Of a stretch of 6,155 bases of DNA, positions 1 through 3,000 are shown piece by piece. The position numbers were made by a program. Location of the stretch: the IMG/VR virus record IMGVR_UViG_2531839098_000015; one strand, written 5' to 3'. The stretch's first letter is position 1, and each line of letters starts with the position of its first letter. This DNA is from a virus. Taxonomy: Duplodnaviria; Heunggongvirae; Uroviricota; Caudoviricetes.

Positions 1-3000
1 AACTGAAGAAAGGCTTCAAAATCGCCAGGCTGAATATCAAAATGAAATTAATCAACTATATGCGCTAGGTGTTAATTTTGATGATATTTAAAATTATTTT
101 TCCATTTTTTTGATTTTTCAACAGCTGAATATCGGAAATAGTCAGTGACGAACATCAGTATTTTTACATAATTACGTCCGGGTCATTGTCGGTTTATCTC
201 CTTTTACTTGTGGTAATTGAGGGATAACAACAAAAAAGGTGAGTTTTGCGACTCACCTTTTTTATTTGTTTCTTATTCAGAATCGATATCTTTTAAATCA
301 TCCTGAATCGCTTGCGCGTTCGGATTTTCCTGCGGTTTGAGTTCGCCGCCATTAGCGATGAAATCATGACGCTGGAAGTACGCTTCGCGCACCATAATAT
401 AAGGATCGGACGACTGACGCAGCAGACCGTCGGAATCCAGCAGCTGTGCGCGGGTTTCGATACCTTCAAGCGTCCATTTACCCACAGACATCGGCCAGGT
501 CAGCCAGGAAAGAACCGGGTAAAGACCATCCGCCATATCACCACCGTCATCACGCAGCGTGAAGCTACCGTAGAACGGTAATTGAACGTACGGGCCATAA
601 CCCACGCCATAATGACCAAGCGTACTACCGAAGCGGTGAGGTTCAGTCCGTTGCAGTTTCGGGTTCGCCATCCCTGCAACATCAATAAAGCCGCCCATCC
701 CCAAAATGGTGTTCAGGAAAAAGCGGGTAAAGTGGACCATCCCCTGATAAGGGTCGCCCTGCAAGAAGTAGTTAACCATCACCGCAGGTTCTTCAAGGTT
801 GCCGGTAAAATTGCTCAAACCGTTACGCGCCGGTTGCGGAACATAATCACGCCAGGCGACAGCGACCGGTCGAACAATATACGGGTCTAATACATTGAAG
901 TTAAAGTTGTACATGGTGCGGTTGAACCCTTCTAACGGGTCAGAACGCCCTTGCTGATCTGTACCGGAACTCGCACACCCCACCAGAAGCGTAGTTCCCA
1001 GAGCAAGCGCCGACAGGCGAAGCTTCATAAATGTCTCCCTGTTTTTTTATGGCTTATGCAGTTTGCCATCCATGACGGAACGATACCGTATCCGCCTGTT
1101 TAGGTGTGGGCGATTGTAACAGCACGTCAACTGATGTCCAGACGCCCTGATTTGCTGATTTGATCATAGCCTGGTAATCGCCGCCCTGTAGGCTACTTGA
1201 TTCTATAGAAACAGAAAAAGGCAAACGCGGCCTTTTCTACATTTTCAAAGTAACTCCCGCCAGTTGCGAGCAAAAAAGCCGCTACGCTTTAGCTATACGT
1301 GCTAATTCAAGAGAAGAGACCATGGACAACGACAAAATTGATCAACACAGCGACGAAATTGAAGTTGAGAGCGAAGAAAAAGAGCGTGGCAAAAAAATAG
1401 AAATAGATGAAGATCGACTCCCCTCCCGGGCGATGGCAATTCATGAGCATATCCGCCAGGATGGTGAAAAAGAGCTGGAACGCGACGCAATGGCACTACT
1501 GTGGTCAGCCATTGCGGCGGGTCTGTCGATGGGCGCTTCATTACTGGCAAAAGGGATATTTCATGTCGAACTGGAAGGTGTGCCGGGCAGCTTCTTGCTG
1601 GAGAATCTCGGTTATACCTTTGGTTTTATTATCGTCATTATGGCCCGCCAGCAATTATTTACCGAAAACACCGTGACTGCGGTACTACCCGTCATGCAAA
1701 AACCGACAATGAGCAACGTTGGCTTACTTATGCGGTTATGGGGCGTCGTGCTGCTGGGTAATATTCTCGGGACAGGTATTGCGGCGTGGGCATTTGAATA
1801 TATGCCAATCTTCAATGAAGAAACTCGCGATGCATTTGTCAAAATCGGCATGGATGTGATGAAGAACACCCCCAGCGAGATGTTTGCCAACGCGATCATT
1901 TCCGGCTGGCTGATCGCCACTATGGTATGGATGTTTCCTGCAGCGGGTGCGGCAAAGATTGTGGTGATTATATTGATGACCTGGCTTATTGCCCTGGGTG
2001 ACACCACTCACATCGTTGTCGGTTCTGTTGAAATCCTCTATCTGGTGTTTAACGGTACGCTGCACTGGAGCGATTTCATCTGGCCCTTCGCACTACCTAC
2101 TTTAGCGGGGAACATCTGCGGCGGCACCTTTATCTTCGCGTTAATGAGTCATGCACAGATCCGTAACGACATGAGCAACAAGCGCAAAGCAGAAGCACGC
2201 CAAAAAGCAGAACGTGCGGAAAACATTAAGAAAAATGATAAAAACCCGGCATAAATGGCGAGGGTTTAAGCAATCGAGCGGCAGCGTACTTACCCCGCAG
2301 TCCATTAGCGGGTATACTCATGCCGCATTGTCCTCTTAGTTAAATGGATATAACGAGCCCCTCCTAAGGGCTAATTGCAGGTTCGATTCCTGCAGGGGAC
2401 ACCATTTATCAGTTCGCCTCCATCCGTACCAGTCCGCAAAATCCCCTGAATATCAAGCCTTCCGTAGATTCACAGTTCGTCATGGTTCGCGTCAGATCGT
2501 TGACAGCCGCACGCCATGACGGGTAAAAAGTGGATAAAATAATTTTACCCACCGGATTTTTACCCATGCTCACCGTTAAGCAGATTGAAGCAGCAAAGCC
2601 GAAAGAAAAACCATACCGCCTACTCGATGGTAATGGCCTGTACCTTTATGTCCCTGTATCAGGGAAAAAGGTATGGCAGCTTCGCTACAAGATTGACGGT
2701 AAGGAGAAAATCCTGACCGTCGGAAAATATCCGCTTATGACTTTGCAAGAGGCAAGGGATAAAGCATGGACTGCGAGGAAAGACATCTCGGTTGGCATCG
2801 ATCCGGTAAAGGCGAAAAAGGCTTCGTCTAACAACAATTCCTTTAGTGCGATTTACAAGGAATGGTACGAGCATAAGAGGCAAGTCTGGTCAGCCGCCTA
2901 TGCGACTGAACTTGCAAAAATGTTTGATGACGACATTTTACCTATCATCGGCGGCCTTGAAATTCAGGATATTGAGCCGATGCAACTGCTGGAAGTAATC

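What the first reader, a model, noticed from the sequence alone, without database searches (positions are those of the whole stretch)
2478..2566. Dense repeat architecture in the attL arm overlapping the integrase start
An 8-bp inverted repeat (CGTCATGG 2478-2485, CCATGACG 2514-2521) brackets a perfect TTGACA. It is followed by GGGTAAAA (2521-2528) and two direct copies of its complement TTTTACCCA (2543-2551, 2558-2566); the last copy ends in the A of the initiator ATG. This many exact 8-9-mers in 90 bp is unlikely to be chance. Candidate roles are arm-type integrase or excisionase binding sites, an operator controlling int, or a leader hairpin that occludes the int start (GGGTAAAA can pair with either TTTTACCC copy).
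Basis: seen in the sequence. Interest (0 to 1): 0.45.

Follow-up and report, generated by a model that had tools for sequence, protein, structure and literature searches.

The report
Known IntS arm sites and promoter
The repeats upstream of the integrase gene are real, but they are the already characterised integrase binding sites, excisionase (TorI) sites and self-repressed promoter of the E. coli argW prophage recombination module, so the finding is correct but ordinary.

Summary
Every repeat is at the stated coordinates. The window is E. coli O157:H7: bases 1-6095 are identical to EDL933, with yfdC, argW, intS and a decayed Sf6/HK620-like prophage.

GGGTAAAA and the two TTTTACCC copies are three of the four IntS arm-type sites. 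TTGACA is the -35 of the intS promoter. Its -10, TAAAAA (2524-2529), lies inside the first arm site, and the start site mapped in K-12 corresponds to window 2535/2536. Panis et al. 2010 (PMC2951348) showed that IntS and TorI each repress this promoter about 5-fold in K-12. They also showed that the EDL933 copy ("intC") represses itself 10-28-fold.

My comparison agrees:
- Binding-site positions are 0.89 conserved against 0.54 for other positions of the argW-intS intergenic region (2406-2565).
- In relatives that use GGGCAYA/TATGCCC, P'1, P'2 and P'4 and both P-arm sites carry the changed motif; P'3 is degenerate or lost there.

The 8-bp inverted repeat is not conserved. Its left arm spans the junction of two TorI sites.

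The leader-hairpin idea fails for the mapped mRNA, which starts downstream of GGGTAAAA and is unstructured.

This O157 remnant has no torI and no second core copy in the 40-kb locus fetched, so only autoregulation of intS plausibly remains. Already known; low interest.

The parts
2330..2404 (+). argW, tRNA-Arg(CCU); host integration target
   Evidence: ARAGORN, Rfam tRNA and RefSeq annotation.
2390..2405 (+). 16-nt att core CTGCAGGGGACACCAT (IntS core-type site, crossover region) at the 3' end of argW
   Evidence: Identical to the KplE1 core quoted in PMC2951348. It corresponds to the 'attP core' annotated in the HK620 and Sf6 records. Sequence read.
2412..2436 (+). TorI (recombination directionality factor) sites I1 (GTTCG 2412-2416) and I2 (GTCCG 2432-2436)
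   Evidence: The K-12 block I1;2 at 2464409-2464436 maps to window 2408-2435, and the motifs are GTTCG/GATCG/GTCCG (PMC2951348). Conservation in 19 divergent relatives is 0.91 and 0.77.
2475..2499 (+). TorI sites I3 (GTTCG 2475-2479), I4 (GTTCG 2485-2489) and I5 (GATCG 2495-2499). I4 and I5 mediate TorI repression of the intS promoter in K-12.
   Evidence: The K-12 block I3;4;5 at 2464472-2464499 maps to window 2471-2498, and mutating I4 or I5 abolishes TorI repression. Conservation is 0.91, 0.93 and 0.78.
2478..2485 (.). It spans the end of I3, the spacer and the start of I4, and is not a unit of its own.
   Evidence: Inner bases 2480-2484 are 0.40 conserved. HK620 and L012 read CGTAATGG with no compensating change.
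2500..2505 (+). -35 hexamer TTGACA of the intS promoter (PintS; 'PintC' in EDL933; 'pX' or 'prophage excision promoter' in the Sf6 and HK620 records)
   Evidence: PMC2951348 and GenBank annotations. The first five bases, TTGAC, are invariant in all 29 aligned relatives. The full hexamer is 1.00 conserved in 19 divergent class A sequences. Several class B relatives read TTGACT, and one reads TTGACG.
2514..2521 (.). Its last G is the first base of P'1.
   Evidence: Bases 2514-2520 are 0.36 conserved. CUS-3 reads ACATGACG with no compensating change.
2521..2528 (+). IntS arm-type site P'1 (GGGTAAAA), overlapping the -10 hexamer TAAAAA (2524-2529)
   Evidence: PMC2951348 states that P'1 overlaps the -10 and that all P' sites contain TAAA. 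Conservation is 0.98. The site reads GGGCATA in class B relatives.
2532..2539 (+).
   Evidence: One-mismatch match. It reads GGGTAAA or GAGTAAA in relatives and GGGCAYA in class B. Four P' sites are listed in Table 1 of PMC2951348. The assignment of this copy to P'2 is my inference.
2535..2536 (+). Transcription start sites (T and A) of intS, transferred from the K-12 primer extension
   Evidence: K-12 positions 2464536/2464537. K-12 and the window align without gaps across 2330-2699. With the ATG at window 2566 these positions fall on T2535 and A2536, seven bases after the -10.
2543..2550 (-). IntS arm-type site P'3 (TTTTACCC, the inverted copy of GGGTAAAA)
   Evidence: Conservation is 0.92. 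In class B the site is degenerate (ATGACC) or lost.
2552..2556 (+). CCGGA, containing the weak Shine-Dalgarno GGA (2554-2556)
   Evidence: RBS annotated in the Sf6 record X59553. Conservation is 0.81.
2558..2565 (-). IntS arm-type site P'4 (TTTTACCC), directly abutting the ATG
   Evidence: Conservation is 0.97. It reads TATGCCC in class B.
2566..3723 (+). intS ('intC' in EDL933): tyrosine integrase with an N-terminal arm DNA-binding domain (residues 2-86)
   Evidence: Pfam PF13356, PF22022 and PF00589. 377 of 385 residues are identical to K-12 IntS. RefSeq annotation.

Best explanation
The 90-bp region is the promoter-proximal half of attL of a KplE1/HK620/Sf6-type recombination module at argW.

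**Anatomy**
- Four IntS arm-type sites: P'1 GGGTAAAA and P'2 GGATAAAA in one orientation, P'3 and P'4 TTTTACCC in the other.
- These are interleaved with the sigma-70 promoter of intS: -35 TTGACA, an 18-bp spacer, and -10 TAAAAA inside P'1. Transcription starts at 2535/2536.
- Three TorI (excisionase) pentamers, I3-I5, sit directly upstream of the -35.

**Mechanism**
- The N-terminal arm-binding domain of IntS binds the P' sites. In a complete prophage, this, together with sites P1 and P2 on the other arm, the core, TorI and IHF, builds the intasome for integration and excision.
- Because P'1 covers the -10, and P'2-P'4 cover the start site and the 30-nt leader, bound IntS also shuts off its own promoter. 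This is negative autoregulation.
- TorI at I4/I5 blocks the -35.

**Shown and inferred**
- Shown by others: the promoter, the start site, IntS and TorI repression in K-12, and 10-28-fold self-repression of the EDL933 fragment.
- Shown here: identity of the window to that fragment, site-specific conservation, and a concerted motif switch on both att arms.
- Inferred: which copy is P'1, P'2, P'3 or P'4, and that in this O157 remnant only the autoregulatory role survives, because it has no torI and no second core copy in the 40-kb locus fetched.
For: **Identity of the locus**
- Window 1-6095 is identical to EDL933.
- Within 2478-2566 the window differs from K-12 at only two positions, 2491 and 2513. 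Neither lies in a site or a promoter hexamer.

**Published experiments (PMC2951348)**
- The -35 is TTGACA and the -10 is TAaAAa. Primer extension places the start at a T and an A.
- IntS and TorI each repress about 5-fold. I4 and I5 are needed for TorI repression. P' sites share TAAA, and P'1 overlaps the -10.
- PintC-gfp from EDL933, covering -205 to +81 (window 2361-2646), is repressed 28-fold in exponential phase and 10-fold in stationary phase by IntC.

**Database annotation**
- The HK620 record annotates 'attP' repeats equivalent to window 2520-2541 and 2541-2566. It also annotates a P-arm repeat holding two GGGTAAAA copies, and a 'prophage excision' promoter equivalent to window 2500-2549.
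- The Sf6 record annotates promoter pX equivalent to window 2499-2528.

**My comparison**
- In 19 divergent class A relatives, site positions are 0.89 conserved against 0.54 for other positions of the argW-intS intergenic region, 2406-2565.
- The distance from the -35 to P'1 is invariant in 36 distinct sequences.
- In Salmonella, Kluyvera, Pantoea, Tatumella and Izhakiella relatives, and in IMG/VR viral contigs, P'1, P'2 and P'4 carry GGGCAYA/TATGCCC; P'3 is degenerate or lost there.
- Both P-arm sites also carry the changed motif, in 14 distinct attP-like viral contigs and in phage S.Inf 5-2. They lie about 200 bp away, on the other side of the core.
- The Int arm-binding domain carries class-specific residues at positions 23, 38 (Q/R), 49, 51 (T/V) and 54 (K/P), among others.
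Against: - I could not read the two papers that footprinted the IntS sites (Panis 2007 JBC; Panis 2010 Virology). The exact borders of P'1-P'4 are therefore inferred from Table 1, the TAAA statement, the statement that P'1 overlaps the -10, and my alignment.
- In K-12, single mutations of P'2, P'3 or P'4 did not relieve repression, and P'1 could not be separated from the -10. Which site or sites mediate repression is not formally resolved.
- In this O157 locus there is no torI, and no second core copy in the 40-kb locus fetched (about 20 kb on each side of argW). The recombination role of the sites is probably vestigial here.
Confidence: 0.93

Rival explanations
1. Leader hairpin. In the int mRNA, GGGUAAAA pairs with a UUUUACCC copy and hides the Shine-Dalgarno sequence and AUG, controlling translation.
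For: An RNA that starts upstream of 2521 can fold a nested hairpin (P'1:P'4 and P'2:P'3) of -15.6 kcal/mol, z = -3.2 (2515-2570). The P'1:P'4 pairing is kept in 90% of cells across 29 relatives, with double changes in the class B sequences. Such read-through RNA could arise from the phage pI promoter, which HK620 annotates upstream of hkaC.
Against: - The mapped start (2535/2536) lies downstream of GGGTAAAA, so the promoter's own mRNA lacks the 5' strand. Region 2535-2600 folds at -3.9 kcal/mol, z = +0.92.
- Any inverted pair of protein sites keeps complementarity automatically, so the covariation does not discriminate.
- Pairs outside the motif bases are broken: columns 62:90, 63:85 and 64:84 are unpaired in 15-18 of 29 sequences. 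The inner helix is only 66% paired, and P'3 is degenerate or lost in class B.
- The same motif also switches in the two P-arm copies about 200 bp away and in direct orientation, which a local hairpin cannot explain.
- Rfam has no match other than the tRNA.
Confidence: 0.05
2. The 8-bp inverted repeat CGTCATGG...CCATGACG is a separate operator or cruciform that brackets the -35 and regulates the promoter.
For: It is perfect in the window, K-12 and Sf6. On the 29-sequence alignment, cells with a change on both sides exceed shuffles (24 against 15.1, reached by 2 of 500). The outer three pairs are mostly kept.
Against: - About 4 such repeats are expected per window by chance.
- HK620 and L012 (CGTAATGG) and CUS-3 (ACATGACG) break it without compensation, even at 96-98% overall identity.
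- Central pairs are unpaired in 16-19 of 29 sequences.
- Inner bases are 0.36-0.40 conserved.
- The conserved outer bases belong to TorI site I3 (GTTCG) and to the G that starts P'1. The single compensatory C-G to T-A change is one event in the E. coli clade.
Confidence: 0.03
3. Inert relic. In this decayed O157 prophage the repeats are leftover attP sequence with no current function.
For: There is no torI, and no second core copy in the 40-kb locus fetched around argW. The downstream prophage is truncated and interrupted by an IS.
Against: - intS is intact: 385 aa, with 377 of 385 residues identical to K-12 IntS.
- The EDL933 promoter fragment is active and repressed 10-28-fold by its own integrase.
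- At least 80% of the 401-bp argW-intS query (window 2300-2700) is covered in 1867 of 5426 complete E. coli genomes.
Confidence: 0.1

Closest known systems
KplE1 (CPS-53) attL / PintS of E. coli K-12 (Panis et al. 2007 and 2010; PMC2951348)
   Same: The argW core is the same, and the -35, -10 and all four P' copies are identical. The five TorI pentamers are the same, and IntS is 98% identical. Within 2478-2566 only two substitutions separate the two sequences, and neither is in a site. The EDL933 version of this locus was itself tested in that paper, as intC.
   Different: K-12 keeps torI and attR with sites P1 and P2, and can still excise. The O157 locus has neither in the 40-kb locus fetched. 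Its cargo is a different remnant: Sf6/P22-like ejection-protein genes and an IS, instead of the gtr genes.
attP of phages HK620, Sf6 and CUS-3 (Lederbergvirus)
   Same: The P' arm is 96-99% identical. GenBank annotates the same repeats as attP repeats and the same TTGACA promoter.
   Different: In the phages, the P arm with two GGGTAAAA copies and the excisionase gene hkaC lie directly upstream of the core. In the window, host DNA (argW and yfdC) lies there instead.
Satellite phage P4 int regulation (Piazzolla et al. 2006, as cited in PMC2951348)
   Same: The int promoter overlaps att, and both the integrase and the directionality factor lower int expression.
   Different: According to the discussion in PMC2951348, Vis is proposed to act on the int mRNA, whereas TorI acts on DNA at the -35. 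I did not compare P4 sequences here.
Phage lambda Int arm-type sites (P1, P2, P'1-P'3)
   Same: A heterobivalent tyrosine integrase whose N-terminal domain binds repeated arm sites on both sides of the core.
   Different: In lambda, int is transcribed from PI and PL and not from a promoter inside att, so the arm sites are not operators of int. The arm-binding domain belongs to a different Pfam family: PF13356 here, against PF09003, which the paper names for lambda-type integrases.

Membership tests
KplE1/HK620/Sf6-type argW recombination module | 16-nt core CTGCAGGGGACACCAT at the 3' end of argW, next to the integrase gene, which has the same orientation as the tRNA | tested here: met
   The core is at 2390-2405, argW at 2330-2404 and intS at 2566-3723, all on the + strand. 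The core sequence is quoted in PMC2951348.
KplE1/HK620/Sf6-type argW recombination module | IntS-type tyrosine integrase with an N-terminal arm DNA-binding domain | tested here: met
   PF13356 at residues 2-86 (E = 2e-25), PF22022, and PF00589. 377 of 385 residues are identical to K-12 IntS, and 374 of 385 to HK620 Int.
KplE1/HK620/Sf6-type argW recombination module | int promoter (-35 TTGACA, -10 TAAAAA) lying inside attL | tested here: met
   TTGACA at 2500-2505 and TAAAAA at 2524-2529 are identical to K-12. The start site is transferred from the K-12 primer extension and was not measured in O157.
KplE1/HK620/Sf6-type argW recombination module | Four P' arm-type sites containing TAAA, with P'1 overlapping the -10 | tested here: met
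   Four copies lie at 2521-2528, 2532-2539, 2543-2550 and 2558-2565. All are identical to K-12. Conservation is 0.72-0.98 in divergent relatives.
KplE1/HK620/Sf6-type argW recombination module | Five TorI pentamers (GTTCG/GATCG/GTCCG) in two blocks on attL | tested here: met
   The pentamers lie at 2412-2416, 2432-2436, 2475-2479, 2485-2489 and 2495-2499. They match the K-12 block coordinates.
KplE1/HK620/Sf6-type argW recombination module | Cognate directionality factor gene (torI/hkaC), and an attR with a second core copy and sites P1 and P2 | tested here: not met
   tblastn with HkaC/TorI finds nothing in the window or in the 40-kb O157 locus, but does find K-12 torI. Only one core copy is present in the 40-kb locus. 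The module here is therefore an incomplete remnant: attL and int only.
KplE1/HK620/Sf6-type argW recombination module | Physical binding of IntS and TorI to these sites, and repression of the promoter | not testable with these tools
   Reported for K-12. For the EDL933 promoter and integrase pair, self-repression of 28-fold and 10-fold is reported (PMC2951348). The footprinting papers could not be read.
cis-regulatory leader RNA (any Rfam family) | Match to a curated covariance model, or a conserved structure in the actual transcript | tested here: not met
   Rfam at E <= 1 returns only the tRNA and one sub-threshold hit lying over the tRNA. The mapped leader 2535-2600 has z = +0.92.

The most novel reading that the evidence does not exclude
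The nested inverted layout of the arm sites (P'1 and P'2 facing P'3 and P'4) might have a second function at the RNA level. Transcripts that enter from upstream, such as those from phage promoter pI during infection or read-through from argW, would fold the -15.6 kcal/mol hairpin. That would mask the weak Shine-Dalgarno sequence and the AUG, so only mRNAs initiated at the internal promoter would be translated well.

A separate, modest novelty: the family splits into at least two co-evolving Int arm-site specificity classes, GGGTAAA and GGGCAYA. TorI-type site motifs vary independently of these classes. This could be exploited to map the arm-recognition code of PF13356 domains.
Probability: 0.07. 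Interest if true: 0.35.

Novelty: already known. Interest (0 to 1): 0.1.

Why it matters
Nothing new needs explaining here. The region is a textbook-grade example of an integrase promoter embedded in attL and repressed by its own product, and this very O157 sequence was used as a validation case in 2010.

The practical value is for annotation. In O157:H7 genomes the argW-intS intergenic region can be labelled with the core, TorI sites I1-I5, the PintS promoter and sites P'1-P'4.

The side observation has some follow-up value. Arm-site motifs and residues of the Int N-terminal domain switch together between GGGTAAA-type and GGGCAYA-type relatives. That gives a natural data set for working out how PF13356 arm-binding domains read DNA. 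It does not change the verdict on the finding.

Tried and rejected
1. **The 8-bp inverted repeat as an operator or terminator.** It is not followed by a T-run on either strand. It is not conserved and is broken without compensation.

2. **Leader hairpin.** Rejected for the mapped mRNA. Pairing outside the protein motifs is not maintained.

3. **The consensus scan's only promoter hit, ATGACG-16-AATAAT (2516-2543).** This is the 1991 Sf6 prediction. It disagrees with the mapped start site, and its -35 lies in the poorly conserved spacer.

4. **The intragenic TTTTACCT (2936-2943), annotated as an attP repeat in the HK620 record.** It is simply the Ile-Leu-Pro codons ATT TTA CCT. Every relative outside the E. 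coli/HK620 clade uses synonymous alternatives.

5. **A short inverted repeat inside the -35/-10 spacer next to P'1.** There is only a weak tendency: mean best stem 3.36 against 2.87 in shuffles. It is absent in many class B sequences. Not pursued.

6. **The JBC 2007 and Virology 2010 footprinting papers.** They are not held in the library.

7. **Expensive protein, structure and metagenome searches.** Deliberately not run. Identity to a characterised locus made them unnecessary.
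Full report
**1. Observation**

Reading window 2200-2800 confirms every element at the stated coordinates:
- CGTCATGG at 2478-2485
- CCATGACG at 2514-2521
- TTGACA at 2500-2505
- GGGTAAAA at 2521-2528
- TTTTACCCA at 2543-2551 and 2558-2566
- the initiator ATG at 2566

The three exact TTTTACCC/GGGTAAAA copies are the only ones in the 6155-bp window, and they lie within 45 bp. Allowing one mismatch gives 14 matches against 5.5 expected, reached by 0 of 200 shuffles. Only 3 of 300 dinucleotide shuffles contain any 8-mer with three or more copies within 50 bp.

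The 8-bp inverted repeat is real but unremarkable. About 4.4 perfect 8-bp inverted pairs with a 3-40 nt spacer are expected per shuffled window.

**2. Context**

The window is E. coli O157:H7 chromosome. Bases 1-6095 are identical to EDL933 and to strain PV15-279. The gene order is:
- mlaA (minus strand)
- yfdC
- argW, tRNA-Arg(CCU), at 2330-2404
- intS at 2566-3723
- Sf6/P22-like DNA-ejection genes on the minus strand

This is a decayed lederbergvirus-like prophage. IntS has an arm DNA-binding domain (PF13356, residues 2-86), a central domain and a tyrosine-recombinase catalytic domain. It matches K-12 IntS at 377 of 385 residues.

**3. What the repeats are: database and literature**

The same DNA, at 96-99% identity, is the P' arm of attP in phages Sf6, HK620, CUS-3 and others.

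The HK620 GenBank record annotates the following:
- 'attP' repeat regions equivalent to window 2520-2541 and 2541-2566
- a P-arm repeat holding two GGGTAAAA copies
- a 'prophage excision' promoter equivalent to window 2500-2549

The Sf6 record annotates promoter pX equivalent to window 2499-2528.

The K-12 version (KplE1/CPS-53) was dissected experimentally by Panis et al. 2010 (PMC2951348):
- The -35 is TTGACA and the -10 is TAaAAa. Primer extension places the start at a T and an A. K-12 and the window align without gaps across this region, so these fall on window T2535 and A2536.
- There are five TorI (excisionase) sites with GTTCG/GATCG/GTCCG motifs. I4 and I5, next to the -35, are required for TorI repression.
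- There are four IntS arm-type sites, P'1-P'4. All contain TAAA, and P'1 overlaps the -10.
- IntS and TorI each repress about 5-fold.

The same paper cloned the homologous EDL933 promoter, argW-intC, from -205 to +81. That fragment equals window 2361-2646. Its own integrase repressed it 28-fold in exponential phase and 10-fold in stationary phase.

Within 2478-2566 the window differs from K-12 at only 2491 and 2513. Neither position lies in a site or a promoter hexamer.

**4. Independent comparative test**

I collected 58 loci encoding relatives of IntS from GTDB species genomes, five more divergent phage attP regions and 80 IMG/VR loci.

In 19 divergent 'class A' sequences (under 90% identity to the window across the intergenic region), conservation tracks the binding sites. 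Overall, site positions average 0.89 against 0.54 for the other positions of the argW-intS intergenic region (2406-2565).

| Element | Conservation |
|---|---|
| -35 | 1.00 |
| P'1 | 0.98 |
| P'4 | 0.97 |
| P'3 | 0.92 |
| P'2 | 0.72 |
| I3 | 0.91 |
| I4 | 0.93 |
| I5 | 0.78 |

The distance from the -35 to P'1 is invariant in 36 distinct sequences.

A second group, 'class B', comes from Salmonella phage S.Inf 5-2, Kluyvera, Pantoea, Tatumella, Izhakiella and many viral contigs. It keeps the same layout but carries a different motif. P'1 and P'2 read GGGCAYA, and P'4 reads TATGCCC. P'3 is degenerate (ATGACC) or lost.

The two P-arm sites change in the same way. They lie about 200 bp away, on the far side of the core, and are in direct orientation.
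- Class A reads GGGTAAA twice in HK620, Sf6, K-12 attR, Chronis, Midgardsormr38 and EhrS_49.
- Class B reads GGGCAYA twice in S.Inf 5-2 and in 14 distinct attP-like viral contigs.

The arm-binding domain carries class-specific residues at positions 23, 38 (Q/R), 49, 51 (T/V), 54 (K/P) and others. A concerted switch of dispersed copies together with the protein domain that reads them is the expected signature of protein recognition sites.

**5.

The 8-bp inverted repeat:
- The left arm (2478-2485) is the last two bases of TorI site I3, the 5-nt spacer, and the first base of I4.
- The right arm lies in the variable -35/-10 spacer and ends on the first G of P'1.
- HK620 and L012 read CGTAATGG, and CUS-3 reads ACATGACG. 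Each has no compensating change.
- On 29 aligned relatives the central pairs are unpaired in 16-19 sequences.
- Inner bases are 0.36-0.40 conserved.

The leader hairpin:
- The mapped mRNA starts at 2535/2536, downstream of GGGTAAAA.
- Region 2535-2600 folds at -3.9 kcal/mol, z = +0.92.
- Only an RNA that starts further upstream forms the nested -15.6 kcal/mol hairpin (z = -3.2).
- The P'1:P'4 pairing is 'conserved', but any inverted pair of protein sites behaves this way.
- Pairs outside the motif bases are broken in 15-18 of 29 sequences. The inner helix is only 66% paired.
- Rfam finds nothing except the tRNA.

The only hit of the consensus promoter scan, ATGACG-16-AATAAT, is the 1991 Sf6 prediction. 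It is inconsistent with the mapped start site and is poorly conserved.

**6. Mechanism**

In a complete phage or prophage, IntS bridges the arm sites (P1, P2 and P'1-P'4) and the core through its two DNA-binding domains. Together with TorI on I1-I5 and IHF, this assembles the intasome.

The int promoter lies inside this array, so occupancy by IntS covers the -10, the start site and the 30-nt leader. Occupancy by TorI covers the region abutting the -35. Both lower intS transcription. The authors argue that this keeps IntS within the narrow concentration range that supports excision.

In this O157 remnant there is no torI, and no second core copy in the 40-kb locus fetched. The recombination role is therefore probably vestigial, and autoregulation of an orphan integrase is what remains. 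The first part is inference. The second was shown for EDL933.

**7. Novelty and score**

This is already known, down to the exact strain background. The inverted repeat and the hairpin were over-reading. Interest is low (0.1).

The only mildly new material is the pair of co-evolving arm-site specificity classes, and the independent variation of the excisionase-site motif among relatives. These are side observations, not properties of the finding.

Noticed in passing
window 6096-6155: The last 60 bases are the terminal sequence of IS1203/IS629. They match the DNA next to the IS1203 transposase gene in PV15-279 (L006 from 24585). EDL933 and PV15-279 carry 788 more bases of prophage remnant before that IS end, so the window's strain has an IS-adjacent deletion that truncates the DUF2824 gene.
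   Followed up: partly
L071 888-989; L022, L027-L030 1105-1206; L073-L134 (attP-like loci): A second specificity class of the same att architecture. The arm sites read GGGCAYA/TATGCCC instead of GGGTAAA/TTTACCC at P'1, P'2, P'4 and both P-arm positions, while P'3 is degenerate or lost. The Int arm-binding domain has class-specific residues at 23, 38, 49, 51, 54 and others.
   Followed up: yes
L022, L027, L028, L085, L088, L097, L100, L104 (region between the core and the -35): The excisionase (TorI-type) site motif varies independently of the Int arm class. It reads GTTCG in E. coli-like elements and GTTCT/GTTCG in Salmonella. It reads CRTTACC in Kluyvera-like elements, CGAAC/AGAAC in several Pantoea-like elements and viral contigs, and GTAAAC in Tatumella punctata. 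This suggests modular exchange of the directionality factor together with its sites.
   Followed up: no
window 2936-2943: TTTTACCT inside intS is annotated as an attP repeat in the HK620 record. It is just the Ile-Leu-Pro codons ATT TTA CCT. All relatives outside the E. coli/HK620 clade use synonymous alternatives, so it is not a conserved site.
   Followed up: yes
window 2506-2523: The distance from the -35 to P'1 is invariant (TTGAC, then 16 nt, then GGG) in 36 distinct relatives, while the 3' half of the spacer varies. There is a weak tendency to a 3-5 bp inverted repeat (CCGC...GCGG) inside the spacer: mean best stem 3.36 against 2.87 in shuffles. It is absent in many class B sequences.
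   Followed up: partly
L004 (HQ424691.1, phage VT2phi_272) 1637-3076: In O157:H7 strain 71074, an Stx2a prophage with its own, different integrase is inserted immediately upstream of argW. Its annotated attL overlaps the 5' end of the tRNA. It therefore sits in tandem with this IntS remnant. The window's strain has yfdC there instead.
   Followed up: no
window 232-263: A 13-bp perfect inverted repeat (AAAAAAGGTGAGT / ACTCACCTTTTTT) flanked by A and T runs lies just downstream of mlaA (minus strand). It looks like a bidirectional intrinsic terminator.
   Followed up: no
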